This document shows positions 13,644 to 58,005 of a stretch of 64,000 nt of DNA, one piece after another (position 1 is the first letter of the stretch; every line of letters starts with the position of its first letter). A program made the translations under genes and the position numbers. This stretch comes from Chloroflexota bacterium (GTDB taxonomy: Bacteria; Chloroflexota; Dormibacteria; CF-121), in the NCBI GenBank assembly GCA_005880615.1, contig VBID01000115.1, positions 16,431 through 80,430 on the forward strand, read 5' to 3'. The notes beneath the pieces were generated by a model. It searched no databases and had not been told where the DNA came from. It saw only the letters and a list, made by a program, of their open reading frames with translations.

Positions 13644-13826
13644 AGCCCGGATCCACCGAGCGGACGAAGCAGATTGGGATGCGGGGCCAGATGAGCCGAA
13701 GGCGGCGACGAGCACGCGAAGGCGCGCACCCGTCGGTGCGTAACTGAGCGCGCGTCAGAGCCAACGCACGGATCGCTCGCATCCGCGCCCAAGATGCGAG
13801 TTGGTTTCGGTGGACGCGGGCTTAGG
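13644..13826. mobile_element. MITE-like element, copy A (TIR AGCCCGGATCCACCGAGCGGACGA ... TCGGTGGACGCGGGCTTAGG)
   Basis: Imperfect ~25-bp terminal inverted repeats shared with copies at 22724, 29586, 36365 and 57644; one internal unit containing the hairpin GCACC-CGTC-GGTGC. The cupin gene's stop codon (13822-13824) lies in the right TIR. Confidence 0.75.
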
Positions 13827-14169
13827 CGGTGGAGGTCCCGGCCCGGCCGTACTTGTCCTCCAGCCGCACCACATCATCGATCTCGGGGGAACTCACCTCG
13901 AAGAACTCGCAGTCGTCGACCGCGATCATCCGGTGCTTGCGGCCGGGCACGATGCGGCGAACCATCCCCGGTGTCAGCCGGTGGGTGTGCATCTGGCCCT
14001 GATCATCCTCCAGCTCCAGGTCCATGATGCCTTTCACCAGCAGCAGGGTCTCATCCTTCTGCTGGTGGTACTGCAGGCTCAACATCTCCCCGCGATTGAC
14101 GTGGATCACCTTGCCCAGGTACCGATCCGTGATGGCAAACCGATGCTCCCAGCCCCAGGGCTTGGCCAC
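13822..14169 (-). CDS. cupin-domain protein (mannose-6-phosphate isomerase type II C-terminal-domain-like)
   Basis: WGWEHRF...GEMLSLQYHQQKDETLLLVKG...HRLTPGMVRRIVPGRKHRMIAVDDCEFFEV is a cupin_2 fold. Start uncertain (GTG 14169 or TTG 14199, the latter overlapping the PGM stop). Confidence 0.65.
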   Translation of the reverse strand: MAKPWGWEHRFAITDRYLGKVIHVNRGEMLSLQYHQQKDETLLLVKGIMDLELEDDQGQMHTHRLTPGMVRRIVPGRKHRMIAVDDCEFFEVSSPEIDDVVRLEDKYGRAGTSTA

Positions 14170-14191
14170 CCTGGAGCCGTCGGCGGGTTGG

Positions 14192-15628
14192 TCAGGCAAC
14201 CTGGCGCACTCCGAGGCGGTCCTCGAGCGCGGCCAGCAGCTTGTCGACTCGCTGGCGGCTGGGCGCTTCACTGTAGACGCGGATCAACGGCTCGGTCCCG
14301 CTGAATCGGGTCAGCACCCAGCTGCCGTCGGCGAAGTAATACTTGAATCCGTCGTCGGTGCGGCTGCGCTGGATGCGCTCACCGGCCAGCTCCCGCGGCG
14401 GGTTCTTCTGCAGATCGGCATAGATGGCAGCCCGGCGATCCGCGTACTCCTCGCGCTCGAGGTGGATGTCGTGGCGGGCGTAGGCATGCGGCCCCACCAG
14501 GTCCTCCAGGTGCTGCAGCACCTTGGCCAAGGGCTGGCCGTACTGGACGATCAGGTCGGCGATGAAAATCCCGGAGAGGATACCGTCGCGTTCCGGGATG
14601 TGGCCCCGGAAGCCGAACCCGCCGCTCTCCTCGCCCCCCAGGATGGCGTTCACCTCGGTCATCTTGGGCCCGATGTACTTGAAGCCCACCGGGAGCTCAT
14701 GGACCGTGATCCCAAAGCGTTCGCCCAGCTTGTCCATCATCGAGGTCATCGTCAGGGAGCGCACCACGTCCCCCTTCCAGCCTCGCTTCTCGACCAGGTA
14801 CAGCATCAGCAGCGCCATCACCTGCAGCTGGTTGATGAACTGGCCGCGCTCGTCGATGATCCCCACCCGGTCGGCGTCGCCGTCGTTGGCGATGCCCAGG
14901 TTGTAGCCGCCTTTGCGGATCAGGGTCTGCGCTTCATCCAGGTTGGGGGGGATGGGCTCGGGATGCATCCCCCCGAAACCCGGGTTGCGCTCACCGTGGA
15001 TCTCGTCGACGACGGTGCGGCCACCCGAGAGCAGCAGTTTCAGGTATCCCTGGCCGCCGCCGTACATGGAGTCGTGCAGGATGTGCAGCCCGGCGTCTTT
15101 GAGAGCCTGCAGGTTGACCATCCGGCCGATCTGCGCGATGTAGGCCGGCCGCGGGTCGAAGATTTCGATCAGGCCCTGCCGCTCGCCGTCCTCAAATCGC
15201 AGCTGGCGAACCTGGCCGCTTCGCTGGACGACGGCGATCTCCTGCTCCAGGCGGCCGGTGACCTCCGGCGAGGCGGAGCCCGCGTACTCTGGCTTGTACT
15301 TGAGGCCGCTGAAGTAGTAGGGGTTGTGGCTGGCGGTGACCACCACGGCACCGCTGGCCTTCCGGTCCAGGATGGCGTAGGAGGAAACCTGGGTAGGGGA
15401 AGGCGCGTCGATGAGCAGCGCCCGCACGCCGTTACCGGCCAGCACCTGGGCCACCTCGCGCGCGAACCGGTCGGAGGCAAACCTGGTGTCGTATCCCACC
15501 ACCGCGGACGGGCTTGGTTTGCTGGTCAGGTACTGGGCGATGCCCTGGGTGGCCACCCGCACGGCCTCATAGGTGAAGTCGTCGGCGATGATGCCGCGCC
15601 ATCCGTCCGTGCCGAACTTGATGTCCAG
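14192..15628 (-). CDS. phosphomannomutase/phosphoglucomutase (alpha-D-phosphohexomutase family)
   Basis: TASHNPYYFSGLKY (active-site Ser loop), GDGDADR (metal-binding loop), GGEESGG sugar-binding loop. The conserved N-terminus DIKFGTDGWRG lies upstream of the first GTG, so a CTG start at ~15628 is inferred (see findings). Confidence 0.85.
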   Translation of the reverse strand: MDIKFGTDGWRGIIADDFTYEAVRVATQGIAQYLTSKPSPSAVVGYDTRFASDRFAREVAQVLAGNGVRALLIDAPSPTQVSSYAILDRKASGAVVVTASHNPYYFSGLKYKPEYAGSASPEVTGRLEQEIAVVQRSGQVRQLRFEDGERQGLIEIFDPRPAYIAQIGRMVNLQALKDAGLHILHDSMYGGGQGYLKLLLSGGRTVVDEIHGERNPGFGGMHPEPIPPNLDEAQTLIRKGGYNLGIANDGDADRVGIIDERGQFINQLQVMALLMLYLVEKRGWKGDVVRSLTMTSMMDKLGERFGITVHELPVGFKYIGPKMTEVNAILGGEESGGFGFRGHIPERDGILSGIFIADLIVQYGQPLAKVLQHLEDLVGPHAYARHDIHLEREEYADRRAAIYADLQKNPPRELAGERIQRSRTDDGFKYYFADGSWVLTRFSGTEPLIRVYSEAPSRQRVDKLLAALEDRLGVRQVA

Positions 15629-15658
15629 GCTCTCACCCTCGTCAGGATGCCGGTCCGG

Positions 15659-16639
15659 TCAGCGCGAAGCCGGGACCGGAGAACTGCGAAGCCGCGCTCG
15701 CCAGTAGTTTAGGGTATCCTCCAGCGTCTGCTCCAACGAAATGGTCGGCTCCCAGCCGGTCAGCTGCCGGAACTTGGTGGCATCGCCGACCAGCAATTTG
15801 ACGTCGGACGGCCGCATTCGCGACGGGTCGTTCTCGACGGTGATCTTTTCCTTGGTGAAGGACAGCAGGATGTCGAGCATCTCCTTCACCGTCCGGCGGC
15901 GGCCCGACGCGATGTTGTACACCTCGCCAAAGGTCCCGTGCTCGAGCACCAGCCAGTAGGCGCGCACCATGTCGCGCACGTCCGTCCAGTCGCGGACCGG
16001 GGAGAGGTCACCCACCTTGATGACGGGTTTCCGGCGGCCCAGCTCGACCTCCGCCACCTGCTTGGCGAAGGACGAGGTGACGAACACCTCGCCTCGGCGG
16101 GGCCCCTCATGGTTGAAGGCCCGGGTCACGACGGTCTGCAGGCCGTAGGAGTAGTGGTACTGGATGGCCAGCATCTCCTGCGCCACCTTGCTCACGGCGT
16201 AAGGAGAGAGCGGCCGCAAGACGTTCGATTCCTTGATCGGGACCTGGTGCGGCTCCACGTGGCCGTACTCTTCGGAGGACCCGGCGATGTGCACCCGCGG
16301 ATCGACCCCCTCGCTGCGGATGGCCTCGAACAGGTTGACCTGGCCAATGACGTTGGTGTTGAGCGTTTCGACCGGAGCCCTCCAGGATGTGGGCACGAAA
16401 CTCTGGGCGGCCAGGTGAAAGATCCGGTCGGGTTGCGTCTCGCGGATGACCAGGCGCATCGAAGATGCGTCGTTCATGTCACCTTCCAGGACGTGGATCT
16501 TGCCCTCGAGGTGCTCGATGTTCTCCACCCGGCTGCGCCACCGCTTGATCCCGAAGACCTCCACCCCGGGCAGGGTGAGGCAGTAGTCGGCCAGGTGGCT
16601 GCCGGCCATCCCGGTGATGCCGGTGATCAGGACGCGCAT
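15659..16639 (-). CDS. gmd: GDP-mannose 4,6-dehydratase family (NAD-dependent epimerase/dehydratase)
   Basis: MRVLITGITGMAGSHLADY Rossmann motif, catalytic YxxxK (PYAVSKVAQE); SDR-extended fold typical of Gmd/Rmd. Confidence 0.8.
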   Translation of the reverse strand: MRVLITGITGMAGSHLADYCLTLPGVEVFGIKRWRSRVENIEHLEGKIHVLEGDMNDASSMRLVIRETQPDRIFHLAAQSFVPTSWRAPVETLNTNVIGQVNLFEAIRSEGVDPRVHIAGSSEEYGHVEPHQVPIKESNVLRPLSPYAVSKVAQEMLAIQYHYSYGLQTVVTRAFNHEGPRRGEVFVTSSFAKQVAEVELGRRKPVIKVGDLSPVRDWTDVRDMVRAYWLVLEHGTFGEVYNIASGRRRTVKEMLDILLSFTKEKITVENDPSRMRPSDVKLLVGDATKFRQLTGWEPTISLEQTLEDTLNYWRARLRSSPVPASR

Positions 16640-16675: not shown

Positions 16676-16714
16676 AATACCCCCACCCCACCCTCCCCGC
16701 AAGGGGGAGGGAAA
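16676..16714. repeat. GC-rich hairpin element copy inside the manC-gmd intergenic spacer (same operon)
   Basis: ACCCCCACCCCACCCTCCCCGCAAGGGGGAGGGAAAGG. Confidence 0.8.
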
Positions 16715-16736: not shown

Positions 16737-17807
16737 TCACAGGTATTCCTTCTTCCCCATCTGCTTCAGCCGTTCCACGATCAGGCGAACGTCCTGGGAG
16801 CGGGTCTTGGGACAGATCAGGATGGCGTCCTCGGTCTCGATTACCACCATGTTCTCCAGGCCGACCGCCGCCACCAGCTTGCGGGGCGAGTGGATCATGC
16901 AGTTCCGCGAGTCGATCAGCACGTGCTCGCCTTCCACGAAATTGCCGGCCTCGTCCTGCTCCAGGATGTCGTGGAGGTCCGCCCAGGACCCGATGTCGTG
17001 CCATTCGAACTGGGCCGGCACCATCAACAGGTTGTGCGTCTTCTCCAGCACCGCCGTATCGATGGCCGCCGTGGGCAGCGCCAGGTAGGCCGCTTCGGCC
17101 GCCGCCGTATCGCCCCGCCCACTGGCGTCCCCGAAGGCGGCCAGCCCGCCGTACAGGTCGGGGGCATGTTTGGCCATCTCGGCGAAGAGGATGTCCACCG
17201 ACCAGCTAAACAGCCCCAGGTGCCAGAAGTAGTCACCCTCCGCCAGGTAGCGGTCGGCTGTCTGCAGATCGGGCTTCTCGACGAACGCGCGGACCCGGTA
17301 GGCGGGGTCGCGGCCGGGCGCCTGCACCCGCTCGCCGAGCCGGATGTAACCGAAGGCCGTGGACGGATAGGGCGGCTTCAACCCCACCGTGACCAGCTTC
17401 CGCTCCTGTTCGGCCCACCCTGCCTCGCCGTCCAGCGTCCGCAGGTACGCGTCCTCATCGTTTCCGAGGTAGTGGTCGGCGTGGACTGAGATCATGGTCG
17501 CCCCGGGATCCGCCCGAGCGATGGTAAAGGCGGCCAGGCCGAGGGCCGAGGCGGTTCCCCGGCGGGCGGGCTCGATGATGAACTGGCCTTGGGTCAGGCC
17601 GGGGAGCTGCTCCTGGATGCTCTCCACCTGCGAGCGTTCGGTGATCACCGACACATCGTCGGTCAGCCGGCGGACCCGGTCATAAGTCGCCTGGAGGAGC
17701 GACTGCTTCCCGTGGAGGGCCAGCAGGTGCTTGGGATGCCCTTCCCGCGAGCGCGGCCAGAGCCGCGTGCCGCTCCCGCCGGCCAGGATCACCACGTGAC
17801 GGGCCAT
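16737..17807 (-). CDS. manC: mannose-1-phosphate guanylyltransferase (GDP-mannose pyrophosphorylase)
   Basis: VILAGGSGTRLWPRS...PKHLL nucleotidyltransferase signature; length and architecture of ManC/CpsB (GT-A-like NTP-transferase plus left-handed beta-helix). Confidence 0.85.
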   Translation of the reverse strand: MARHVVILAGGSGTRLWPRSREGHPKHLLALHGKQSLLQATYDRVRRLTDDVSVITERSQVESIQEQLPGLTQGQFIIEPARRGTASALGLAAFTIARADPGATMISVHADHYLGNDEDAYLRTLDGEAGWAEQERKLVTVGLKPPYPSTAFGYIRLGERVQAPGRDPAYRVRAFVEKPDLQTADRYLAEGDYFWHLGLFSWSVDILFAEMAKHAPDLYGGLAAFGDASGRGDTAAAEAAYLALPTAAIDTAVLEKTHNLLMVPAQFEWHDIGSWADLHDILEQDEAGNFVEGEHVLIDSRNCMIHSPRKLVAAVGLENMVVIETEDAILICPKTRSQDVRLIVERLKQMGKKEYL

Positions 17808-17808
17808 G

Positions 17809-18775
17809 CTAGTTCCGCTCCATCAGACGCCAGTAGTCCAGGGTGTCGCGCAGGGTGCGGTCGAGCGAGATGGCCGGTTGCCATCCGGTGAGCCGGCGGA
17901 ATTTGGTGGCGTCGCACCAATACGTGCTGACCTCCACGGCGTGCGTCCGGGCCGGGTCGACCTCGACCGTGATCGGGACGCGGCTCATGGGCAGCAGGAG
18001 CTCGACCACCTGGCGCAACGTGGGCGCCTGGCCGGCGCCCAGGTTATAGACCTCGCCCGGACGTCCCTGCTCGATGGCCAGGCGGTAGGCCCGCACCATG
18101 TCCCGCACGTCGGTGAAGTCGCGGCGGGCATCCAGGTTGCCGACGCGGAGCGTGGGGGGCTGCCGACCGGTCTCCATGCGGGCCACCTGCCGGGCGAAGC
18201 TGGGGATGGCGAACGTTGGGAGCTGGCGGGGTCCGGTGTGGTTAAAGGGACGAACGCGCACCACCGGCAACCCCAGGCTGAGAAAGTACTGGAGGCCAAG
18301 CAGATCCTGCCCGACCTTCGACACGCCATACGGGGTCAGCGGCCGCAGGGGCGCCTCTTCGGTGATGGCCCGCTCCCCATGGTCCGGCTGCTCGCCGTAC
18401 TCGTCGCCCGAGCCGACCACCAGCAAGGCTGGCGGCGTTTTCAGGGCGCTGGCCGCGGCCAGAACGTTGGCCTGGCAGCCGAGGTTGGTGTGCAGGGTGC
18501 CGGCCGGATCGTCCCAGGACTTGGCCGGGCTGGACGCGGCGGCCAGGTGGAAGACCCACTCCGGCTTGATGGCCCGCATCAACTCGTCCACCGCCGAGCG
18601 GCGCAGCAGGTTGATTTGGTGGCAGCGAACGCGCCGCGAGAGCTGCGCGGTCGCGTACGGGGTGGCTCCCCGGATGGCCCCATGGACCAGGTGCCCTTCG
18701 GCCACGAGGAGGTCGGCGAGATGGCTGCCGGCGAATCCATCGACGCCGGTGATAAGGACGACCCGCCGCCCTCGG

Positions 18776-18790
<15 letters not shown>
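17809..18790 (-). CDS. second NAD-dependent epimerase/dehydratase (GDP-4-keto-6-deoxymannose reductase/epimerase-like, Rmd/GMER-like); no canonical start codon
   Basis: Paralog of the gmd-family gene ([10 protein letters not shown] YxxxK motif). The Rossmann motif [21 protein letters not shown] is in frame upstream of the first GTG (18705), with no ATG/GTG/TTG between it and the upstream stop (~18792). The 5' boundary is approximate and overlaps the metK stop. Confidence 0.65.
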
Positions 18791-22160
<3,370 letters not shown>

Positions 22161-22166
22161 GATGGC

Positions 22167-22712
22167 TCAGAACTTGATGTGGGAGACCACGTCGTACTCC
22201 GCCAGGTTGTCAATCCCTTTGAGGAAGCGGAGCTCGATCAAGAAGGAGATGCCCACCACCTGGCCCCCCAGTTGCTGGACCAGCCGGGTCGTCGCCCGGG
22301 CCGTGCCGCCGGTGGCCAGCAGATCATCCACGATGACCACCGGCTGGCCGGGCTTGATCGCGTCCTTGTGGATTTCCAGCACGGCCGAGCCGTACTCGAG
22401 GGCATAGGATTCGGCAATCTTCTGGGCGGGCAGCTTGCCCTCCTTCCGCACCGGGACGAATCCCGCTCCCAGCTGGTACGCCAGCGCCCCGCCGAAGATG
22501 AAGCCGCGCGACTCCACCCCGACCACCAAATCGACGGTTTTGCCGCGATAGGTGGCGGCCATCAGGTCGACGGCTTCCCGAAAGGCGGCCGGGTCCATCA
22601 GCAAGGTGGTGATGTCCTTGAAGAGGATCCCCTCCTTCGGGAAGTTGGGGACGTCCCGGATCTTCGCGCTCAGGGCCGCGAGGGCGGCATCCGCGGCGCG
22701 GTCGGCCTGCAC
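22167..22712 (-). CDS. apt: adenine phosphoribosyltransferase
   Basis: PRPP-binding VVIVDDLLATGGTA motif; 181 aa; FPKEGILFKDIT N-terminal Apt signature. Confidence 0.9.
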   Translation of the reverse strand: MQADRAADAALAALSAKIRDVPNFPKEGILFKDITTLLMDPAAFREAVDLMAATYRGKTVDLVVGVESRGFIFGGALAYQLGAGFVPVRKEGKLPAQKIAESYALEYGSAVLEIHKDAIKPGQPVVIVDDLLATGGTARATTRLVQQLGGQVVGISFLIELRFLKGIDNLAEYDVVSHIKF

Positions 22713-22723
22713 GGGCCCTAGTG

Positions 22724-22787
22724 TAGCCCGGGTCCGCCGATCGGACGACGCAGATACGAGTTCGATTCGGTGGACGTCGGCTTATTC
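22724..22787. mobile_element. mini MITE copy (left and right TIRs only, ~64 bp)
   Basis: TAGCCCGGGTCCGCCGATCGGACGACGCAG + ATACGAGTTCGATTCGGTGGACGTCGGCTTA; the marR stop codon (22782-22784) is the TAA of the right TIR. Confidence 0.7.
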
Positions 22788-23270
22788 TCGGCGAGGAGCC
22801 ATCAGCCCGGGCCGGACGGGACGCAGGTGGGCCTGGAGCCGGTTGAGCAGGCTTACCAGCTGCTGCTGTTCAAGCGCACCGAGGCCGGCGAAGATCCGCC
22901 CGACGGCGCGGTTGTGCTCGGGGAGCATCTCGGCCAGTAGGATTCGAGCCCGGTCCGTCATCTCGACCCGCAGCATGCGCCGGTCCTCCGGATGCCGCAC
23001 CCGGCGGACCAGCCGGCGGCGCTCCAGGCCGTCCAGCAGCCCGGTGACCGTGGCCCGGCTGACCGCCAGCCGGTCGCTGATCTGGTGGGGGGCGGCCGAT
23101 CCACCAGACTCGTGCAGGACCTGGAGGACGCCGAACGCCGCGCTGGAGAACCCCTGCCGGCGGACGCTGCGGTCGAGCTCGGAGCTGATCAGGCTGCCCA
23201 GCTGGCGCAGCCCAGCGGCGCAGGCGCCCGCGCGGGGCATCGGGCGGCGGACTGCCAGCGGGGCGGTCAC
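22782..23270 (-). CDS. MarR-family transcriptional regulator
   Basis: Winged-helix region SAAFGVLQVLHESGGSAAPHQISDRLAVSRATVTGLLDGLERRRLVRRVRHPEDRR. Confidence 0.85.
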   Translation of the reverse strand: MTAPLAVRRPMPRAGACAAGLRQLGSLISSELDRSVRRQGFSSAAFGVLQVLHESGGSAAPHQISDRLAVSRATVTGLLDGLERRRLVRRVRHPEDRRMLRVEMTDRARILLAEMLPEHNRAVGRIFAGLGALEQQQLVSLLNRLQAHLRPVRPGLMAPRRE

Positions 23271-23393
23271 CCCCTCAGGCTAGCAGAACCTGGACCATAG
23301 TTTGGAACCTAATGATTTGGGCATAAACGACCTGAAACCGGGGTTCCCCGGTACGAGGCTACGGTTTCCGTAAGGGGTTAAAGGAGAACTGAA

Positions 23394-25730
23394 ATGGCTG
23401 AGGTGAAGACCGAACTGCTTCCCCTCCTCTCGTTAAACAACGGGGTTGTGCTGCCCGGCATGGTGGTCACCATCCCGCTCGACCGGGAGGAAGCCCGGGC
23501 TGCCGTCCAGGCCGCGCGAGCTGGCGATAGCCTGTTGCTGCTGGTCCCGCGGGTGGAGGGTCGCTACGCCACCCTGGGCACCGTAGCTCGGGTCGAGGAT
23601 TCGCGCAAGCTGGCCAACGGGATCGAGATCACGGTCCTGCAGGGCCAGTACCGAGCGTCTGTCGGAAGCGGCGCGGGGGGAACCGGGCCCGCCCTGCGCG
23701 TCATGGCGCAGCCGGTGGCGGACGTCAACCCGCTCACCGAGCAGGCCCATGTCCAGGCCCGTGAGTACAAGGCCCTGATCGAGAACCTGCTCGAGCTGCG
23801 TGGAGCTGCGGACGCCATCCAAATGGTGCGCAGCATCGACCGGCCGAGCCAGCTGGCGGACCTGTCGGGCTACTCGCCGGATCTCTCGCTGGAGCGAAAG
23901 GTCGAGGTCCTCGAGACGCTCGACGTCGAGGCTCGGCTGCAGAAGCTCATCGGCTGGACGCGCGAGATCCTGGCCGATGCGTCCCTCAAGGACAAGATTC
24001 GCAACGAGGTCCAGGAGGGGATGGAGAAGCGCCAGCGTGAGTTCTTGCTCCGGCAGCAGCTGGAGGCCATCAAGAAGGAGCTCGGCGAGGAAGGCGGCGA
24101 CGTGGTCGCCGAGTACCGCCGGCGGATCGAGGAAGCCGGCATGCCGGACGCCGTACGCAGCGAGGTCGAGCGTGAGCTCGGCCGGCTGGAGCGCACCAGC
24201 GAGCAGAACCCGGAGGTCGGCTGGATTCGCAACTATCTCGACTGGATGCTCGACCTGCCCTGGAACAAGCGGACCGAGGATCGGTTCGACGTGGCCGAGG
24301 CGCGGCGCATCCTGGACCAGGACCACACCGGCCTGGACGACGTGAAGGATCGCATCATCGAGTTCCTCGCCGTCCGGAAGCGGCGCGAAACGCGCGGCCT
24401 GGGCGTCGCCGGCGGCCGTGGCTCCGGCGCCATCATTACCCTGGTCGGCCCGCCCGGCGTGGGCAAGACCTCCCTGGGGGAGTCGGTCGCCCGGGCGCTG
24501 GGTCGCAAGTTCACCCGCATCTCGCTGGGTGGCATCCATGATGAGGCGGAAATCCGCGGACACCGGCGCACCTACGTGGGCGCTCTGCCGGGCCGGATCG
24601 CGCGCGCCCTGAAAGAAGCGGGCACGCGCAACCCGGTGATCATGCTGGACGAGATCGACAAGGTCGGCAACGACTGGCGGGGCGACCCGTCGTCGGCCCT
24701 CCTGGAGGTGCTCGATCCGGCGCAGAACCACTCCTTCCGCGATCACTACCTGGAGGTCGACCTCGACCTGTCCGAGGTCCTCTTCATCCCCACGGCCAAT
24801 GTGGCGGACACCATCCCCGGGCCATTACTGGACCGGATGGAGATCATCCGGCTGGACGGCTACACGGAGGAGGAGAAGGTCGCCATCGGCCGCGATCACC
24901 TGCTCCGGCGCCAGCTGGAGCGCAACGGACTGAGCGTTGATGAGGTGAGCGTGACCGACGAGGCGATCCGGCGGATCATCGCCGAGCACACCCGCGAGGC
25001 GGGCGTTCGCAACCTGGAGCGCGAGCTGGGCCGGTTGCTGCGCAAAGTGGCGACCCGCATCGAGGGTGGCAAGCTGAGCGCACCCGTGCGCATCGACACG
25101 GTCGACGTCCGCGAGTACCTAGGGAGGGCCAAGTTCCAACCGGAGGCGGCCGAGCGCACCGAGGTGCCCGGCGTGGCCACCGGCCTGGCGGTCACCGGAA
25201 CCGGCGGCGAAGTCCTCTTTGTGGAGGCCGCCGTCATGGACGGCCCCAAGGGGCTGACCCTGACCGGGCAGTTGGGCGACGTGATGAAGGAGTCGGCGCA
25301 GATCGGGCTCTCGTACGTCCGCTCCCATGCCGCGGAGCTGGGCATCGGTCCCGGCTTCGAGGAGAAGGGCTTCCACGTGCACGTGCCGGCCGGCGCGGTT
25401 CCGAAGGACGGTCCCTCGGCGGGCGTGACCATGGTAACGGCGCTGGTGAGCCTGATGACGGCGCGGCCGGTGCGGAGTACCGTGGGCATGACCGGCGAGG
25501 TCACCCTGCAGGGCACCGTGTTGCCCATCGGCGGCGTCAAGCAGAAGCTGCTGGCGGCCCATCGAGCCGGACTGACCGAGATCATCCTGCCCTTCCGCAA
25601 CGAGGGAGACCTGGACGATCTGCCAGCCAGCGTCCGGCAGGCGATGACGATTCACCTGGTCCGCGATGTCCGCGAGGTGCTGGAGAAAGCGCTCCAGCCG
25701 CAGCCGATGACGGTGAACAAAGCGGCCTAA
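23394..25730 (+). CDS. lon: ATP-dependent Lon protease
   Basis: 778 aa; LON N-domain, AAA+ (GPPGVGKTS, Walker B MLDEIDK), and protease domain with catalytic Ser (PKDGPSAGVTMVTALVS) and Lys; strong RBS AAAGGAGA. Confidence 0.95.
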   Translation: MAEVKTELLPLLSLNNGVVLPGMVVTIPLDREEARAAVQAARAGDSLLLLVPRVEGRYATLGTVARVEDSRKLANGIEITVLQGQYRASVGSGAGGTGPALRVMAQPVADVNPLTEQAHVQAREYKALIENLLELRGAADAIQMVRSIDRPSQLADLSGYSPDLSLERKVEVLETLDVEARLQKLIGWTREILADASLKDKIRNEVQEGMEKRQREFLLRQQLEAIKKELGEEGGDVVAEYRRRIEEAGMPDAVRSEVERELGRLERTSEQNPEVGWIRNYLDWMLDLPWNKRTEDRFDVAEARRILDQDHTGLDDVKDRIIEFLAVRKRRETRGLGVAGGRGSGAIITLVGPPGVGKTSLGESVARALGRKFTRISLGGIHDEAEIRGHRRTYVGALPGRIARALKEAGTRNPVIMLDEIDKVGNDWRGDPSSALLEVLDPAQNHSFRDHYLEVDLDLSEVLFIPTANVADTIPGPLLDRMEIIRLDGYTEEEKVAIGRDHLLRRQLERNGLSVDEVSVTDEAIRRIIAEHTREAGVRNLERELGRLLRKVATRIEGGKLSAPVRIDTVDVREYLGRAKFQPEAAERTEVPGVATGLAVTGTGGEVLFVEAAVMDGPKGLTLTGQLGDVMKESAQIGLSYVRSHAAELGIGPGFEEKGFHVHVPAGAVPKDGPSAGVTMVTALVSLMTARPVRSTVGMTGEVTLQGTVLPIGGVKQKLLAAHRAGLTEIILPFRNEGDLDDLPASVRQAMTIHLVRDVREVLEKALQPQPMTVNKAA

Positions 25731-25788: not shown

Positions 25789-25857
25789 TGATTGCAGGGC
25801 CACCCCCACCCCTACCCTCCCCTGGGGGAAGGAGAATCTTGGAGGACAATCCACTAA

Positions 25858-27124: not shown

Positions 27125-28540
27125 CTACGGGATCAGCCCCTTACGGATGACCCGCCACTCGTCCGCGTCGACGGCGCGCAGCAACACCAACGCCACCGCG
27201 TACACGGCGGCCCCAACCAGGATCACCAGGACAACGGGCCAGGATCGAAGCAGCAGGACGGCGAGGCCCATCACGCCGCCACTCAGGAGGATGCGGGCGA
27301 TGCCGCGCACCACCGGCAGCGCGTACAGGTGGCGACGCAGCAACCACCAGCCGCCCAAAAAGAGCGCCAGCTCGGTGAGGACCGCGGCCCAGCTGGCGCC
27401 GAGGTATCCGAACGGCGGAATCAGGGCCAGGTTGAGAACCACATTGACCACCAGGGTGGCCAGCGCCAGCCGGGTGAAGTCGGCCTGGCGGTTGATCGCC
27501 GTGAGCGTATAGATGAAAGCATTGTTCAAGAAGAGGAAGACCACCGAGAGCGCCAGGATGGCCAGGGCGGGGATGGTTTGCTCGTAGCCGCGGACGGCGT
27601 GCACCAGCGCAGGCGCCGTGAGGGCAATGCCCACCGCCAGCGGGACCCCCACTACGGCCAGCAGGCGGTAGGACTTCTGGTAGGCGAGCGAGAGGCGGTC
27701 CTTGCCGGAGACCGACAGCAACGACAGAGCCGGGAAGACGGCGTTCATCGCCGTCTGCGGGATCCAGGCGATGGCGTCGACGTACTTGTTGGCGGCCACG
27801 TACCAGCCGACCATCCGGAAGTTGGTGAACAGCTGCAGCAGCACGACATCGACCTGGGCGTAGATGCTGGTGATGACAAAGCCGAGGGCGAGGGGTGCGC
27901 CGCTCCGTAGGACATCGCGCAGGAAGCCCAGGTCGAGGCGGGGCGACGGCCGCTCGCGCCAGATGCCGAAGATCACCCCCAGGGCCAGCAGGCAGGTGAA
28001 GAGGTAGCTGGCCGCATACACCCAGAGGAAGGCGTCCCATGACGCCCGATGGCCGACGGCGTACAGGGTCAGTCCCAGCAGGACAGCGGCCTCACCCAGG
28101 ATGGCCACCACCTCATAGCCCAGCGTGCCCCGCGCGTAGAACGCGGAGCGGAGGAGACCCGAGTAGGAAACGGTGATCAGCAGCACGAACGCCCCCAGCG
28201 TGAACGGGAACAGCGCCGGCGCCAGCAGGCGCAACGCCCCCGCCAGCACCAGGCCGGAGAGGACCAGGAGCAGCAAACGGACGCTGATCAGGTTGCCGAG
28301 ATAGCGGTCGAATACGGCTCGGTCGCGGGCCACGTCCCGGACAAAGACGGTCTGCGTCCCAAGGTCGGCCAGCAGCTGGGCCAGGCTGACGTACACGATC
28401 ATCGCCCCGAAGCGCCCGTACTCGGCGTCGGCGAGGTGACGCCAGAGCAGGACCACCACCACGAACGTCGCGACCTTGGCCACGGCGCGACTGCCGACCA
28501 CCAGGGCGGTGTTGCGAAAGGTGCGGCTAGCGAGACTCAC
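27125..28540 (-). CDS. MOP-superfamily polysaccharide flippase (Wzx/MATE-like)
   Basis: 471 aa, ~14 TM; N-terminal NTALVVGSRAVAKVATFVVVVLLWRHL typical of polysaccharide biosynthesis/export proteins. Confidence 0.75.
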   Translation of the reverse strand: MSLASRTFRNTALVVGSRAVAKVATFVVVVLLWRHLADAEYGRFGAMIVYVSLAQLLADLGTQTVFVRDVARDRAVFDRYLGNLISVRLLLLVLSGLVLAGALRLLAPALFPFTLGAFVLLITVSYSGLLRSAFYARGTLGYEVVAILGEAAVLLGLTLYAVGHRASWDAFLWVYAASYLFTCLLALGVIFGIWRERPSPRLDLGFLRDVLRSGAPLALGFVITSIYAQVDVVLLQLFTNFRMVGWYVAANKYVDAIAWIPQTAMNAVFPALSLLSVSGKDRLSLAYQKSYRLLAVVGVPLAVGIALTAPALVHAVRGYEQTIPALAILALSVVFLFLNNAFIYTLTAINRQADFTRLALATLVVNVVLNLALIPPFGYLGASWAAVLTELALFLGGWWLLRRHLYALPVVRGIARILLSGGVMGLAVLLLRSWPVVLVILVGAAVYAVALVLLRAVDADEWRVIRKGLIP

Positions 28541-28556
28541 GTGTCACGCCGGGATT

Positions 28557-29588
28557 ATGAACGGTTACGATTTGCGGACCATGGGCTCCCCCAAACCCCG
28601 CGTGTTTTCCGGCATCCAGCCCAGCGGCGGGTTGCACCTGGGCAACTACCTGGGCGCCATCCGCAACTGGGTCCGCGACCAGGACAAGTACGACAACATC
28701 TTCTGCGTCGTCGACCTGCATGCGATGACCCTACCCTGGGATCCGAAGCTCCTCCGGGAGAACACCCTCCAGGTGGCGGCCGTCTACCTGGCCTGCGGCA
28801 TCCGCCAGGACACCTCCACCATTTTTGTCCAGTCGCGGATCCCGGCCCACTCCGAGCTGGCCTGGATCCTCACCTGCCTGACCCCGATGGGCTGGCTGGA
28901 GCGGATGACCCAGTTCAAGGAGAAAAGCGCCGGCGAGCAGCGCGAACGGGTGGGCACCGGCCTGCTGACCTACCCGGCGTTGATGGCCGCCGACATCCTG
29001 CTGTACGAAACCAATTTCGTGCCGGTCGGCGAGGACCAGCGCCAGCACATCGAGTACACTCGCGACATTGCCCAGCGGGTCAATCAGCGATTCGGCCAGG
29101 TCCTCACCCTGCCCGAGGCCCTGATTCCCAAGGCAGGCGCCCGGATCATGGGACTGGACGACCCGGAACGGAAGATGAGCAAGACCCTGGCCCAGGCGAA
29201 TCCGGGCCATGCCGTCTTCCTGACCGACCCGCCGGAGGTGATCCGCAAGAAGTTTGCCCGCGCCCAAACCGACGCCGAGCCCGCCGTTCGCTTCCCGCCC
29301 GGCCCGGGAGTCGCCAACCTGCTCCAGATCTACCAGTCGGTCACGGAAACGACGGCCGAGAACCTGGAGCGCACCTTCGCCGGCAAGTCGTACAACGAGC
29401 TCAAGCAGGCCGTGGCCGAAGCCGTCATCGCGGCCCTGCGCCCCATCCAGGAGCGCTATCGTGAGATCCGGTCCGACGACGCGCAACTGGTCCGCGACCT
29501 GGACCGGGCGGCCGACCGGCTGGCGGTGACAGCCAACGCGACGCTGGCGCGCGTGCAGCGGGTGACGGGATTGCTGGGCCATGACTAA
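28557..29588 (+). CDS. trpS: tryptophanyl-tRNA synthetase
   Basis: Class I aaRS: FSGIQPSGGLHLGNY (HIGH-like), KMSKT. Start at ATG 28557 or 28581; the upstream part of ORF 28476..29588 overlaps the divergent flippase gene. The TAA stop is the first three bases of MITE copy B. Confidence 0.9.
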   Translation: MNGYDLRTMGSPKPRVFSGIQPSGGLHLGNYLGAIRNWVRDQDKYDNIFCVVDLHAMTLPWDPKLLRENTLQVAAVYLACGIRQDTSTIFVQSRIPAHSELAWILTCLTPMGWLERMTQFKEKSAGEQRERVGTGLLTYPALMAADILLYETNFVPVGEDQRQHIEYTRDIAQRVNQRFGQVLTLPEALIPKAGARIMGLDDPERKMSKTLAQANPGHAVFLTDPPEVIRKKFARAQTDAEPAVRFPPGPGVANLLQIYQSVTETTAENLERTFAGKSYNELKQAVAEAVIAALRPIQERYREIRSDDAQLVRDLDRAADRLAVTANATLARVQRVTGLLGHD

Positions 29589-29745
29589 GCCCGGATCCGC
29601 CGATCGGACGACGCAGATTGGGATGCGGGACGAGCTGAGCGGAAGGAAGCGACCAGCACGCGCAGGCGCCCTGGCAGCGGCTGAGCCTGGTCAATCCCGA
29701 CCAGGACTGCGCTAGCTCGTTGCTGGCGGTGGAGGGAGCCGTCGG
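29586..29745. mobile_element. MITE-like element, copy B (left TIR intact, right TIR degenerate)
   Basis: TAAGCCCGGATCCGCCGATCGGACGACGCAGATTGGGATGCGGG... shares >85% identity over the first ~60 bp with copies C and D. Confidence 0.7.
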
Positions 29746-29769: not shown

Positions 29770-30045
29770 GGAGGCGGATCAGAGGCAGATCGCCGCGCAC
29801 GCCGCTCAAGCTAAGCGGTCTTCCGAGTAAGTTCTGCTCGAGGTGCGGACCTTTGTCCAGGGACACCCCCACCCCTACCCTCCGCGCAAGGGGGAGGGAG
29901 AGTTAAGGTCGGAAGCAGATCGCCGCGTATGCTGCTCGAGCCAAGCGGTCTACTGGGTAAGTTCTGCTCGAGGTACGGGCCTTACTCCAAGGACACCCCC
30001 ACCCTTGCCCCTGCCCGCAAGGGAGAGGGAGAGGGGAAGGCGGCA
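29770..30045. repeat. two tandem ~130-bp units, each ending in a GC-rich hairpin element
   Basis: CAGATCGCCGCGYAYGCYGCTCRAGCYAAGCGGTCTWCYGRGTAAGTTCTGCTCGAGGTRCGGRCCTTWSTCCARGGACACCCCCACCC...GCAAGGG.GAGGGAGAG appears twice consecutively. Confidence 0.75.
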
Positions 30046-36367: not shown

Positions 36368-36721
36368 GCCCGGATCCGCCGATCGGACGACGCAGCTTGG
36401 GATGTCCGGCGAGATGAGCGGTAGGAGGCGACGAGCACACGCAGGAGCGCACCTGAATGGTGCCTAACCGAGCGCGCGCAGGAGACGACACCCGGAGCCC
36501 GGGGCCGTCGGACGAACGAAGCAGATTGGGATGCGGGGCGTGCCGAGCCGCAGGAGGCGACGAGCACGCGAGGGAGCGCATCCGTCGATGCGTGACTGAG
36601 CGCGCGCAGGAGACGACGCCCGGATCGGCCGCAGCCGCGCCCAAGATGCGAGTTTGTTCCGGCGGCCTCGGGCTCAGCTCGCCCGGCGCCCAGGAGGCAA
36701 GTTCGATTCGGTGGATTCGGC
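36365..36721. mobile_element. MITE-like element, copy C (two internal ~125-bp tandem units)
   Basis: Left TIR TAAGCCCGGATCCGCCGATCGGACGA; right TIR (reverse complement) GGCCGAATCCACCGAATCGAAC; ~90% identical to copy D throughout. Confidence 0.8.
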
Positions 36722-36726
36722 CGTGA

Positions 36727-39136: not shown

Positions 39137-39213
39137 TGGTGCCCTCGGCAGGACTCGAACCTGCGACGCCCGCCTTAGGACGGCGGCGCTCTGGTCCCCT
39201 GAGCTACGAGGGC
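39137..39213 (-). tRNA. tRNA-Arg (anticodon CCT), CCA encoded
   Basis: Reverse complement GCCCTCGTAGCTCAGGGGACCAGAGCGCCGCCGTCCTAAGGCGGGCGTCGCAGGTTCGAGTCCTGCCGAGGGCACCA. 7-bp acceptor stem, D arm GCTC/GAGC, anticodon stem CCGCC/GGCGG with loop GTCCTAA, T-loop TTCGAGT. Confidence 0.9.
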
Positions 39214-39284
39214 GACGACCCATCAGACGCCGTAGGCGAGTATACCCGCGCTACAATTGGCCTCTGCCGCCTGAGGCGGCTCCG

Positions 39285-39360
39285 TCGGGGCGTAGCTCAG
39301 CCAGGTTAGAGCGCACGGTTCGGGACCGTGAGGTCGGTGGTTCAAATCCACTCGCCCCGA
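39285..39360 (+). tRNA. tRNA-Pro (anticodon CGG)
   Basis: CGGGGCGTAGCTCAGCCAGGTTAGAGCGCACGGTTCGGGACCGTGAGGTCGGTGGTTCAAATCCACTCGCCCCGA. Acceptor CGGGGCG/CGCCCCG, anticodon loop TTCGGGA, T-loop TTCAAAT; no encoded CCA. Confidence 0.9.
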
Positions 39361-39445
39361 TTCTTCAAGATCGGATATTTGGGCTGCCAGGCGATCGTCG
39401 GCCACCATTTGGGTGATGGCCTCAGCCCACGCCGATTGCGAGACG

Positions 39446-55876: not shown

Positions 55877-56770
55877 AGTTGGCTACGACCTCCTCAGTCC
55901 TCTCCCCTCCTACAGGAGATCTGACTCAGGAGATGCTGACACTCGAGTCGCCATGTGTCAATGCCGAATATGCTCCTGAGGCCGATCCCGGGCGCCTCGC
56001 AAACCGACGGCGGGCCCGCCGTCGGACTGGGCCGGCCAGCTGCCCCAGGCCGCCCCCCAGCCCGAGCCCGGCGCATGGCGGCCCGTGCCGACCAGCTCTG
56101 AAGCCATTCCGGCTTCGTTGAATCGGACGTCGCCAGGGCGAGGCCCGCCGGCACCATCACCTTCATGCCCTGCTAGCCGGAGCGCGTGGTCACCGCGGGC
56201 GCCGGTCTACCGGCCTGCCTTCGATCACCCCGAGGCCGCGGGCTCAACCATCAGCTATCTCTGCGTCCACCTGTGATCGTCCACCACCAAGGCAGCCGTG
56301 CTCCAGGCAGAGCCGGAACCGGCGGGAATCGTACGGGTCGGCGGATCGATGCCGATCGCCCACGCGGCCGAAAAAGGTCTGCCCGGGGGCGCCCTCCTGG
56401 ACGACGATCTCGTGGCCGAGCTCGCGTAGCCGCTCCCGCACCGGTGGCCGCCGCGGCGAGTCGCGCAAGTTACCGCAGCCGGTCGGTAATGCGTTGATGC
56501 AGCGCGACCTCTTCGGCCTGGAGCCGCGCCAGCCGGGAATGTGCTTCATGGCGGGCTCGGAGCCGCCTCGCGTTCTGGACTGATGGACGGACAAAGAGGT
56601 GAGCCATCAGGAGAGGGGATATCGCTAGCACAGACAGGGCGATAGATACCACTCTCCCAATCTATCGTGGGCGTACGGTTCCAGCGTGACGCAGCAGTCA
56701 CAATCCGGAAACCAACTCGACCCCTTACGAATCGGCTTTCTGAACTGGACGCGACGGTAGGCGGTTTTCC

Positions 56771-57607
56771 TCAACCGGCGGCCGACTCCTCGCCGCGCGG
56801 AGCGGAGGCCAACCACGCCGTGTGCGCGCTGGCTACCACCTCAGACTTTCGCCGGATGTCGTCGTAATCCGAATCGCCGACCGGGACGAAGCGCTCGATC
56901 AGTCCCTCGGCCAGCCGCTCGCGAGCGCCGTCCTCGCCGTTGAGGCCGCACAGGGCCTCGCGAATGGCGGTCTGGACGTCGGCCGGCAGTTTGCTGGAGA
57001 CCACCACCGGGGGGATGGTCGATGGCCCCAGCACCTGGATCACCCGAATCTCGGACGCCAGTGCTGGGCGGCGCTTCAATTCGACGCCCAGGACGTGGGA
57101 ATCGATGGCCGAGGCATCGACCTTGCCGGCCAGCACCGCCTGCATCGACGCCAGGTGCGAACCGGAGTACATCACCCGCCCGAAGAACCGCTCGGTCTCC
57201 CCCAGCTGGAGGAGGTGGTAGCGGGTCAGGACACAGCCGGAAAACGACGTCGGTTGCGTATGCGCCCAGACACGATCACGCAGGTCCGGGAACTTGGCGA
57301 CCGGCCCGTTCCGCCGGACGATCACGTCCGAGAAGTAGATCGGCCGGCCATCGTACCGATGCTGGTTGACGACGGGGGCGGCGATGGCGCGGATCGGCGG
57401 GTCCGGACGCGCGGCCAGCCGCACGTAGGGCAGCCCGCAGAGGAAGGCAACGTCAACATGACCGCCCACCAGCGCCTCCTCGTCGGCCGTGTTCGCCAGC
57501 ACCCCGCCACGGCCCAGCAGCGTCCCCACCCGCTCGGCCACGTAGGCGTAGGCCGGCGTCATGTTGGGCGCCAGGAAGTTGGCGAAGACGAGCGCCGGAG
57601 GGGTCAC
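56771..57607 (-). CDS. PhnD/SsuA-like (phosphonate/phosphite-binding fold) protein without obvious signal peptide
   Basis: Periplasmic-binding-protein type-2 pattern. Start ambiguous (GTG 57607 or ATG 57559). The 5' 100 codons of ORF 56771..57922 are MITE copy D sequence, not coding. Confidence 0.5.
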   Translation of the reverse strand: MTPPALVFANFLAPNMTPAYAYVAERVGTLLGRGGVLANTADEEALVGGHVDVAFLCGLPYVRLAARPDPPIRAIAAPVVNQHRYDGRPIYFSDVIVRRNGPVAKFPDLRDRVWAHTQPTSFSGCVLTRYHLLQLGETERFFGRVMYSGSHLASMQAVLAGKVDASAIDSHVLGVELKRRPALASEIRVIQVLGPSTIPPVVVSSKLPADVQTAIREALCGLNGEDGARERLAEGLIERFVPVGDSDYDDIRRKSEVVASAHTAWLASAPRGEESAAG

Positions 57608-57643
57608 GACTTCGCGGAGTATCGCAGATTGGATACCCCATCC

Positions 57644-58005
57644 AAGCCCGGATCCACCGATCGGACGATGCAGCTTGGGATGCCCGGCGAGATGAGCGGT
57701 AGGAGGCGACGAGCACGCGAAGGAGCGCACCTGAATGGTGCGTGACTGAGCGCGCGCAGGAGACGACACCCGGAGCCCGGGGCCGTCGGACGAACGAAGC
57801 AGATTGGGAGGCGGGGCGTGCCGAGCCGCAGGAGGCGACGAGCACGCGAGGGAGCGCATCCGTCGATGCGTGGCCGAGCGCGCGCAGGAGACGACGACCG
57901 GATCGGCCGCAGCCGCGCCCAAGATGCGAGTTTGTTCCGGCGGCCTCGGGCTCAGCTCGCCCGGCGCCCAAGATGCAAGTTCGATTCGGTGGATCCGGGC
58001 TTAGG
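57644..58005. mobile_element. MITE-like element, copy D (two internal tandem units; best-preserved TIRs)
   Basis: Left AAGCCCGGATCCACCGATCGGACGA; right (reverse complement) AAGCCCGGATCCACCGAATCGAACT; internal hairpins GCACC-TGAAT-GGTGC and GCATC-CGTC-GATGC. Confidence 0.8.

What the first reader, a model, noticed from the sequence alone, without database searches (positions are those of the whole stretch)
13644..58005. Previously undescribed MITE-like element family with ~25-bp TIRs and variable internal tandem units (six loci in 64 kb)
Copies at 13644-13826, 22724-22787 (mini, TIRs only), 29586-29745, 36365-36721 and 57644-58005, plus a remnant at ~2784-2805. All share termini of the form TAAGCCCGGATCCRCCGATCGGACGA with a matching inverted copy at the other end. 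The large copies hold one or two ~125-bp internal units; the 64-bp mini copy is essentially the two TIRs fused. All copies are intergenic. No transposase ORF is present in the window. This density in ordinary chromosomal context points to a non-autonomous TIR element that has been recently active.
Basis: seen in the sequence. Interest (0 to 1): 0.75.

Follow-up and report, generated by a model that had tools for sequence, protein, structure and literature searches.

The report
Hairpin-shaped miniature transposon family in soil Chloroflexota
The window carries six copies of a roughly 176-base non-coding hairpin-forming mobile DNA element (a MITE). It inserts at the short target GC-TWA-GC and is abundant in uncultured soil Chloroflexota, so it is a new family of a well-known kind of element rather than a new kind of biology.

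Summary
The repeat is real, with 0 chance matches expected. It is a dispersed family in soil "Candidatus Limnocylindria" (Chloroflexota): 127 full units in 1.1 Mb of related contigs.

- One full copy was missed, at 1353-1527 on the minus strand.
- The "mini" copy is an in-situ internal deletion of a full copy.
- The large copies are two nested 177-nt units, not tandem 125-bp units.
- Copy C is only a 5' half.

The unit runs GCCCGG...CCGGGC and is flanked by a duplicated TWA inside a palindromic target GC|TWA|GC. This is the signature of IS5 / PIF-Harbinger-type DDE transposition. No transposase was found in the window or in the 1.1 Mb, so the mobiliser is inferred.

Unusual features:
- The whole unit is one long hairpin kept by compensatory changes (98.5% of cells paired).
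- G-U pairs and purine-rich loops make one strand fold better in 99 of 99 units.
- Neighbouring copies share orientation (24 same, 4 opposite).

The best within-genome identity is 97-99%, so activity is not demonstrably recent.

Verdict: a new member of a known kind (bacterial MITE), of moderate interest.

The parts
1353..1527 (-). In element orientation it is flanked by TAA (1528-1530) and TAA (1350-1352), a perfect 3-nt duplication. It lies between two minus-strand genes.
   Evidence: nhmmer E 1.4e-38 over HMM positions 2-174; flanks; genes
13645..13821 (+). Full single unit (177 nt), copy A. Flanks are TCA (13642-13644) and TTA (13822-13824). The TTA is the stop codon (TAA on the minus strand) of the cupin-like gene 13822-14271.
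   Evidence: folds as one long hairpin, -99.2 kcal/mol against -79.5 for shuffles; gene annotation
22726..22781 (+). Internally deleted copy (56 nt), copy B. The orthologous site in L030 holds a full 177-nt unit, and the deletion junction lies at an AGAT direct repeat. Flanks are GTA and TTA. The TTA is the stop codon of the MarR-family gene 22782-23270 on the minus strand.
29589..29669 (+). 5' half of a unit (HMM positions 1-81), copy C. The preceding TAA (29586-29588) is the stop codon of gene 28476-29588. Sequence 29670-29745 is not recognisably part of the family.
36368..36722 (+). Type-2 composite, copy D. Outer unit 5' part 36368-36496, complete inner unit 36497-36673, outer 3' part 36677-36722 with a degenerate terminus GGATTCGGCC. 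The 5' flank TAA (36365-36367) is the stop codon of the helicase gene 33824-36367.
   Evidence: the same composite architecture occurs at other loci and in other genomes (L042, L124, L131, L072, L112)
57646..58000 (+). Type-2 composite, copy E. Outer 5' part 57646-57774, inner unit 57775-57951, outer 3' part 57955-58000. Flanks are CAA and TTA (58001-58003). It is 96% identical to copy D over 300 nt. It lies between a minus-strand phosphonate-binding-protein gene and a plus-strand cupin gene.
2784..2805 (+). Claimed remnant. It shares only a 13-nt string with the mini copy's deletion junction, so membership is uncertain.
   Evidence: sequence; not detected by nhmmer at E<=10

Best explanation
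These are copies of a non-autonomous, palindromic miniature transposable element (MITE) family of soil Limnocylindria (Chloroflexota).

Shown:
- The ~176-nt unit begins GCCCGGATCC... and ends ...GGATYCGGGC, with terminal inverted repeats of about 20 nt.
- It sits in a palindromic target GC|TWA|GC whose central TWA is duplicated on both sides.
- In this 67% GC genome TAA/TTA is largely confined to stop codons and intergenic DNA. This explains why about a third of adjacent genes end exactly in the flanking TWA: the duplication regenerates the stop codon.
- Copies decay by deletions across the hairpin between short direct repeats (mini copy B, L008, L037).
- Two nested two-unit architectures behave as families of their own and are bounded by the outer termini.
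- The whole unit is a long imperfect hairpin kept by compensatory substitutions.
- One strand folds better than the other, and neighbouring copies share orientation.

Inferred:
- Insertion happens by a staggered 3-bp cut made by a DDE transposase supplied in trans, most likely of the IS5 (IS1031-like) / PIF-Harbinger type.
- The strand asymmetry and shared orientation reflect a single-stranded state of the element, most simply hairpin formation during replication. That state would influence which copies survive or how they move.
For: Recurrence and distribution:
- 5 matches, 0 expected by chance.
- 43 genome loci, nearly all in two soil MAGs.
- at least 109 metagenome stretches.
- 127 full units in 1.1 Mb.

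Duplication and target:
- identical flanking trinucleotides 26/81 against 11.4+-2.7 (none of 20,000 shuffles reached 26). Inverted-complement flanks are depleted (4 against 12.3).
- the concordance of W holds within a single arm subfamily (AA 13, TT 7, AT 1, TA 3), so it is not a subfamily-specific end.
- palindromic extended target, C at -4 in 56/81 and G at +4 in 55/81.
- empty sites that lack the element plus 3 nt (L062 against L148, L038 against L113).

Stop codons, deletions, composites:
- stop codons sit in the flanking TWA.
- deletion derivatives at direct repeats, and a full orthologous copy at the mini-copy site.
- composites recur as units.

Structure and orientation:
- 60 pairs, 98.5% of cells paired, 20 pairs with double changes, 0/500 shuffles reach the observed value, slid controls at or below 40%.
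- 626 G-U cells against 37 A-C cells.
- the sense strand is more stable in 99/99 units with RNA parameters and 93/99 with DNA parameters.
- neighbouring copies are 24 same, 4 opposite.

Literature:
- PIF/Harbinger elements make 3-bp duplications and are related to the IS5 family (PMC2213677, PMC12730594).
- IS1031-group elements recognise a 3-nt insertion site (PMC2516522).
Against: - No autonomous element or transposase was found in the window.
- The 1.1 Mb of related contigs holds no long internal repeat, no TIR pair that could be separated from pairs of distinct copies, no convincing IS5-type YREK ORF (one lone regex hit, not followed up) and no gene between opposed copies that looks like a transposase.
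- Only 26 of 81 flanks are perfectly duplicated.
- The arm subfamily that is mostly nested shows xAA...TTy flanks with no duplication. At least two empty-site comparisons (L084 against L060; L054 against L062) do not fit a 3-bp duplication.
- Strand-asymmetric folding and the replication-like orientation bias are not expected for a plain double-strand cut-and-paste element. They are reminiscent of single-strand (HUH) transposition.
- ISfinder could not be searched.
Confidence: 0.6

Rival explanations
1. The units are REPIN/TIR-repeat-like hairpins mobilised as single-stranded DNA by a tyrosine HUH transposase (RAYT or TIRYT, IS200/IS605 relatives). The enzyme would recognise the hairpin on one strand during replication.
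For: - The hairpin is strand-specific: 626 G-U against 37 A-C cells, and the sense strand is more stable in 99/99 units.
- Compensatory evolution runs along the whole unit, including inner units that are no longer termini.
- Neighbouring copies share orientation, 24:4.
- Orientation correlates weakly with gene-strand majority and GC skew.
- The copy number is very high and the copies are extragenic.
- Y1 transposases flanked by long TIRs that form repeat families (TIRYTs) are described in soil bacteria (PMC3733652).
Against: - HUH elements make no target duplication, yet here W of TWA is concordant on both sides within one subfamily.
- The target is a palindrome centred on the duplication, as expected for a dimeric DDE enzyme on double-stranded DNA.
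- There is no conserved GTAG/CGTC tag.
- The better-folding strand tends to lie on the lagging-strand sequence, that is on the leading-strand template. By my recollection, IS608-type elements show the opposite (weak).
- No Y1 gene was seen next to any copy.
Confidence: 0.15
2. The units are primarily a host-serving structured RNA or DNA element, for example a bidirectional terminator, an mRNA 3'-end stabiliser or a protein-binding hairpin. On this reading their spread is secondary and the conserved structure reflects that function.
For: - Covariation is strong, and the purine-rich internal loops are conserved, with near-direct repeats AGGAGGCGACGAGC / AGGAGACGACGC on both sides of the apical hairpin.
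- G-U pairs are tolerated but A-C pairs are not.
- Copies often sit immediately after stop codons and between convergent genes.
Against: - Orientation relative to the adjacent genes is not sense-biased: co-directional flanks are 6 sense and 15 antisense, and the gene-strand index is -0.20.
- I saw no -10-like promoter element or U-tract when reading the consensus; no promoter/terminator scan was run.
- There is no Rfam match.
- Duplicated flanks and presence/absence polymorphism show mobility.
- Copies decay by deletion.
Confidence: 0.1
3. The pattern is an artefact: assembly chimeras at a repeat, or chance palindromes in GC-rich DNA.
For: The window comes from a short-read metagenome assembly (k141 contig), and other assemblies break inside the copies.
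Against: - Independent assemblies are colinear through copies A, B and D (L010 at 97%, L156 with identical gene order, L079 at 93%).
- The same composites occur in several assemblies.
- Shuffles expect 0 chance matches.
Confidence: 0.02

Closest known systems
Tourist-like MITEs of the PIF/Harbinger superfamily (eukaryotes) and their prokaryotic relatives in the IS5 family, notably the IS1031 group
   Same: - A 3-bp duplication of TWA (TAA/TTA) inside a palindromic extended target (C-TWA-G).
- Short TIRs, a non-coding body of 100-400 bp, high copy number and nested copies.
   Different: - No cognate transposase or parent element has been identified here.
- The TIR sequence (GCCCGGATCC...) was not matched to any known IS.
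- The host is an uncultured Chloroflexota class.
- The entire body, not only the ends, is a covarying hairpin with strand asymmetry.
Bacterial MITEs that fold into long hairpins: Correia/NEMIS (Neisseria), ERIC/IRU and YPAL (enterobacteria), RUP (Streptococcus pneumoniae)
   Same: - Imperfect palindromes of about 100-170 bp.
- Intergenic, often at gene ends.
- TIRs, and able to fold as RNA hairpins.
   Different: - To my knowledge (from memory), those families duplicate TA (IS630-type), whereas this one duplicates TWA. The TA model was examined against the flank tables and does not fit.
- There is no sequence similarity.
IS5-family-related bacterial MITEs, e.g. BrickBuilt/MITEPgRS of Porphyromonas gingivalis and ATR of Neisseria meningitidis (PMC4596501)
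   Same: Non-autonomous elements proposed to use IS5-family transposases supplied in trans.
   Different: - Those share their TIRs (GAGACC...) with resident IS copies, and the duplications reported for BrickBuilt vary in length and sequence.
- Here no resident IS is known and the termini are unrelated.
REP/REPIN elements with RAYT, and TIR repeat families with TIRYT (PMC3733652)
   Same: - High-copy extragenic hairpins kept by compensatory change.
- Strand-specific structure and mosaic or nested arrangements.
   Different: - REPs are 20-40 bp and carry a GTAG or CGTC tag.
- To my knowledge they have no target duplication.
- Here the unit is 176 nt with a TWA duplication, and no associated Y1 transposase was seen.

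Membership tests
Bacterial MITE (non-autonomous TIR element) | Terminal inverted repeats of about 15-30 bp | tested here: met
   The 5' arm GCCCGGATCCACCGATCGG pairs with the 3' arm TCGGTGGATTCGGGC in nearly all of 99 units (helix 1, 98.5% of cells paired).
Bacterial MITE (non-autonomous TIR element) | Target-site duplication flanking the element | tested here: met
   Identical flanking trinucleotides in 26/81 loci against 11.4+-2.7 in shuffles. TAA/TAA 17 and TTA/TTA 8 against TAA/TTA 2 and TTA/TAA 0. The pattern holds within one subfamily. Some empty sites are 3 nt shorter, but several comparisons are noisy.
Bacterial MITE (non-autonomous TIR element) | Small, without a transposase gene, many dispersed copies | tested here: met
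   176-nt unit or 355-nt composite; 6 loci in 64 kb; 127 full units in 1.1 Mb of related contigs.
Bacterial MITE (non-autonomous TIR element) | Presence/absence polymorphism between related genomes | tested here: met
   About 8 filled/empty site pairs. Other insertions are shared by genomes 90-93% identical.
Bacterial MITE (non-autonomous TIR element) | A full-length IS with the same termini that supplies the transposase | tested here: inconclusive
   Not found in the window or in 1.1 Mb of loci. Short-read assemblies break at repeats.
IS5 (IS1031-like) / PIF-Harbinger-derived MITE | 3-bp duplication of TWA/TNA in a palindromic target | tested here: met
   Target GC|TWA|GC: C at -4 in 56/81 and G at +4 in 55/81. 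The family property comes from PMC2213677, PMC12730594 and PMC2516522.
IS5 (IS1031-like) / PIF-Harbinger-derived MITE | Termini shared with an element encoding a DDE_Tnp_1/DDE_Tnp_4 transposase | not testable with these tools
   No such element is among the fetched loci, and no further collection scans were possible.
IS630-type MITEs (Correia, RUP, ERIC) | TA dinucleotide duplication | tested here: not met
   Placing the borders one base outwards gives non-matching dinucleotides (TA against AA, TT against TA). Only the 3-nt model gives concordant flanks.
REP/REPIN with RAYT | 20-40 bp palindrome with a GTAG or CGTC tag, no target duplication, RAYT gene flanked by the repeats | tested here: not met
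   The unit is 176 nt, has no constant tag and has a TWA duplication. No Y1 transposase lies near any copy examined. A RAYT/TIRYT elsewhere in the genome could not be excluded.
IS200/IS605-derived palindrome-associated elements | Subterminal hairpins without TIRs, insertion 3' of a fixed tetra- or pentanucleotide, no duplication, strand bias with replication | tested here: not met
   TIRs and concordant duplicated flanks are present. Only the orientation bias (24:4) resembles this family.
Any Rfam RNA family | Match to a curated covariance model | tested here: not met
   At gathering threshold only two tRNAs are found in the window. No credible hit at E<=10 on copy E.

The most novel reading that the evidence does not exclude
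The long hairpin is itself the functional entity. Four features support this: conserved purine-rich internal loops, compensatory evolution even in nested units that are no longer termini, tolerance of G-U but not A-C, and an orientation bias of about 90% that looks replication-linked. Together they would mean that the element moves, or is retained, through a single-stranded DNA (or RNA) hairpin state while still producing a TWA duplication in a palindromic target. No described bacterial transposition system shows that combination. It would point either to an undescribed mobiliser or to a MITE family shaped by orientation-dependent hairpin selection at the replication fork.
Probability: 0.15. 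Interest if true: 0.7.

Novelty: new member of a known kind. Interest (0 to 1): 0.4.

Why it matters
- It documents a high-density MITE family (about one copy per 10 kb in this window) in Limnocylindria, an abundant but uncultured soil Chloroflexota class in which I found no described mobile repeats.
- The repeat fragments short-read assemblies of these genomes, which matters for MAG quality.
- The clean target rule GC|TWA|GC predicts an IS5/Harbinger-like transposase that is still to be found.
- The family is also a natural test case of how long palindromes persist in bacterial chromosomes. It combines covariation, strand asymmetry, orientation clustering and hairpin-mediated deletions.

Tried and rejected
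Searches for a known match:
- Rfam at gathering and at E<=10: nothing.
- Viral contig scan for the terminus: 0 matches.
- blastn of a unit against PLSDB plasmids: only one 43-nt chance-level hit.

Searches for an autonomous partner in 1.1 Mb of loci:
- TIR pairs 0.5-6 kb apart: the candidates could not be told apart from pairs of separate copies.
- All-against-all blastn for internal repeats of 0.5-4 kb: none.
- IS5-type Y..R...E......K motif in six-frame ORFs: one lone hit, not followed up.
- Pattern matches without an HMM hit: mini copies, solo arms or chance hits in genes.
- The gene between opposed copies in L049: a glycosyltransferase-like ORF and a serine hydroxymethyltransferase-like ORF, judged by reading the translations.

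Other attempts:
- Extending beyond the window by exact-protein look-up failed for two genes. A third look-up gave only related contigs with ordinary genes.
- A small ORF in the unit (ATG...TGA, 18 codons, read from the sequence) was rejected, because the ATG and the stop are absent in other subfamilies.
- The TA-duplication (IS630) model was rejected.
- Subfamily-specific ends as the cause of the concordant flanks were rejected.
- Adjacent-gene direction as the cause of orientation clustering was rejected. A 70% antisense preference can give at most 58% same-orientation neighbours, against 86% observed.

Full report
**Observation.**
The proposed 26-nt terminus occurs five times in the window, all on the + strand, with none expected in dinucleotide shuffles. 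Direct reading shows an imperfect inverted copy at the far end of copies A, B, D and E. A repeat search puts all copies in register.

A profile HMM built from 32 full units found one more full copy at 1353-1527 on the minus strand (E about 1e-38). The same search shows three further things:
- Copy C is recognisable only over its 5' 81 nt (29589-29669).
- The remnant at 2784-2805 is not detected. It shares only a 13-nt string with the mini copy.
- The two large copies are nested. Each is an outer unit whose 3' half is interrupted by a complete inner unit (36497-36673; 57775-57951). This produces the apparent 129-nt periodicity.

**Source and context.**
The window is part of an 85.7-kb metagenome contig, ENA ERZ27285740 k141_3292794. 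Window 16964-24961 is 97% identical to a contig of the soil MAG "Candidatus Limnocylindria bacterium SMAG_U11626", a member of the Chloroflexota.

Pfam annotation of the neighbourhood shows ordinary housekeeping and transport genes and no transposase. The genes include Lon, SAM synthetase, AdoHcy hydrolase, GreA, ABC transporters and a helicase. Independent assemblies are colinear through the copies (L010, L079, L156), so the arrangement is not an assembly artefact. Several other assemblies break inside the copies.

**Distribution.**
- One scan of representative genomes found 43 loci, nearly all in two related soil MAGs.
- A viral scan found none.
- Across 1.1 Mb of fetched DNA there are 127 full-length unit hits (107 distinct sequences), and 165 merged element intervals falling in 101 non-redundant sites.

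**Borders and insertion signature.**
The unit runs from GCCCGG to CCGGGC. In 81 non-redundant complete elements the flanking trinucleotides are TAA/TAA 17 times, TTA/TTA 8 times, TAA/TTA twice and TTA/TAA never. Identical flanks number 26 against 11.4+-2.7 in shuffles, and none of 20,000 shuffles reached 26. Inverted-complement flanks are depleted, 4 against 12.3.

The concordance holds within a single arm subfamily, so it is a duplication of the target and not a subfamily-specific end. The positions beyond the duplication are also non-random: C at -4 in 56/81, G at +4 in 55/81, with G at -5 and C at +5/+6. The pre-insertion target is therefore the palindrome GC|TWA|GC.

Some related genomes have empty sites that lack the element and exactly 3 nt, for example L062 against L148 and L038 against L113. 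Other filled/empty comparisons are noisy. Two "empty" alleles keep both TWA copies plus 3-7 nt of the element ends (TTA-GCC-TTA; CTA-GCCGGGC-CAA). These could be excision footprints or extreme deletions.

A 3-bp TWA duplication in a palindromic target is the known signature of PIF/Harbinger elements and of the related IS5 family, notably the IS1031 group (PMC2213677, PMC12730594, PMC2516522). I therefore infer a DDE transposase of that type acting in trans. This step is inferred and not shown.

**Why stop codons sit in the termini.**
In this 67% GC genome TAA/TTA is rare inside genes. About a third of adjacent genes end exactly in the flanking TWA, and the duplication regenerates the stop codon.

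**Decay and composites.**
At the site of the window's 56-nt mini copy, the related genome in L030 has a full 177-nt unit, with flanks 90-94% identical. The mini copy is therefore an in-situ deletion, with its junction at an AGAT direct repeat. Other short copies are deletions between GAGCC or GCG repeats placed symmetrically in the hairpin. This is what is expected of palindrome instability.

Two arm subfamilies occur almost only as inner units, each at one fixed position of an outer unit:
- Type 1 is inserted at GAGCGGAA^GGAGG.
- Type 2, as in copies D and E, is inserted at CCCGGA^TCAGGCC.

Each has at least 7-8 distinct copies in different places and genomes, so the composites spread as units bounded by the outer termini. 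The inner units show no TWA duplication.

**Structure.**
Each unit folds into one long imperfect hairpin. Copy A gives -99.2 kcal/mol against -79.5 for shuffles, and composite E gives z = -10.9.

On 99 distinct units the consensus structure has 60 pairs:
- 98.5% of cells are paired.
- 20 pairs carry changes on both sides (285 cells).
- No shuffle of 500 reaches the observed values.
- Slid controls give 40% pairing or less.

The structure is strand-asymmetric. There are 626 G-U cells against 37 A-C cells. The sense strand folds better in 99/99 units with RNA parameters (-110.0 against -93.8 kcal/mol) and in 93/99 with DNA parameters. The internal loops are purine-rich and highly conserved, with AGGAGGCGACGAGC / AGGAGACGACGC on both sides of the apical hairpin. 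No Rfam family matches.

**Orientation.**
Orientation does not follow the adjacent genes. Co-directional flanks are 6 sense and 15 antisense, with 13 convergent and 5 divergent pairs. This argues against a cis-acting RNA role in host transcripts.

Neighbouring copies on one contig nevertheless share orientation in 24 of 28 non-redundant pairs (p = 2e-4). In the window itself five copies are + and one is -. The sense strand tends to lie opposite the majority of genes within 6 kb (index -0.20, p = 0.002) and on the strand with negative GC skew (p = 0.04).

These numbers fit an orientation preference of about 90% relative to replication direction, with the better-folding strand on the leading-strand template. 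I read this as either orientation-dependent survival of a hairpin-forming repeat or a single-strand step in its mobility. This is inference.

**Activity.**
Within one genome the most similar non-allelic units are 97-99% identical and the median is 85-87%. Several insertions are shared by genomes only 90-93% identical. The family has been mobile over a long period, and very recent activity is not shown.

**Search for the mobiliser.**
- No long internal repeat.
- No TIR pair at IS-like spacing that could be separated from pairs of distinct copies.
- No convincing IS5-type motif: one lone regex hit, not followed up.
- No transposase-like gene between opposed copies.
- Solo arms lie next to ordinary genes.

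**Comparison and verdict.**
The element meets the defining features of a bacterial MITE. The one exception is a demonstrated parent IS. Its insertion signature places it with IS5/PIF-Harbinger-type (Tourist-like) elements. It fails the TA-duplication test of IS630-type MITEs (Correia, RUP, ERIC). It also fails the tag, size and no-duplication features of REP/RAYT and IS200/IS605-derived repeats (PMC3733652), although its strand-specific hairpin and orientation bias resemble those.

I file it as a new member of a known kind, with some unusual properties worth following in closed genomes. Interest is 0.4.

Noticed in passing
window 6123-6145, 12550-12570, 12627-12648, 16691-16711, 25810-25832, 29878-29898, 30009-30029, 61270-61290, 62774-62794: A second, unrelated repeat family: short GC-rich hairpins CCCTCCCC-(GCAA/CTTG)-GGGGAGGG, usually preceded or followed by a CCCCCACCCC / GGGGTGGGG tract. 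They are REP-like. There are 9 in the window and 75 in the related loci. In L062:11828-12004 a MITE sits exactly in the loop of such a hairpin, which is intact in L148.
   Followed up: partly
window 29779-30010 and 61021-61375: Tandem duplications of about 130 nt and about 149 nt in intergenic DNA, each unit ending in one of the CCCTCCCC hairpins. The 61-kb pair also repeats the 3' end of a small hydrophobic ORF next to the DUF2269 gene.
   Followed up: no
L030, and the other DASQAY01 loci such as L002, L007, L011: The MAG labelled 'Candidatus Eisenbacteria bacterium SMAG_U11657' shares 90-94% nucleotide identity with the window and with the Limnocylindria MAG over housekeeping genes, and carries the same MITE family. 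Its taxonomic label or its binning looks wrong.
   Followed up: partly
loci with two or more copies (e.g. L043, L062, L066, L084, L107, L114) and the window: Neighbouring copies share orientation in 24 of 28 non-redundant pairs. The element's better-folding strand tends to lie opposite the local gene majority and on the negative-GC-skew strand, which suggests a replication-linked orientation bias.
   Followed up: partly
L043:5480-5545 and L117:1880-1940 (against the filled L070:4579-4754); L090:3060-3130 (against the filled L107:7373-7549 and L116:4652-4828): 'Empty' alleles retain both TWA copies plus 3-7 nt of the element termini (TTA-GCC-TTA; CTA-GCCGGGC-CAA). These are possible excision footprints or extreme hairpin deletions.
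   Followed up: partly
L075 (Ga0209536_100138491), minus strand position 2472: An exact 23-nt 5' arm preceded by CTA lies directly after the stop codon of a DnaA-like ORF (judged by reading the translation) in a stretch of about 57% GC, without the rest of the unit. The terminus, or the family, may therefore occur in a second lineage.
   Followed up: no
window 39137-39361: A divergent pair of tRNA genes: tRNA-Arg(CCT) on the minus strand and tRNA-Pro(CGG) on the plus strand, 71 nt apart.
   Followed up: no
L001, L009, L028, L041, L061, L068, L095, L107 (type 1); window D/E, L042, L072, L112, L124, L131 (type 2): Two arm subfamilies exist almost only as inner units at one fixed position of an outer unit. 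They still keep full pairing through compensatory differences from the outer arms, and they show no TWA duplication.
   Followed up: partly
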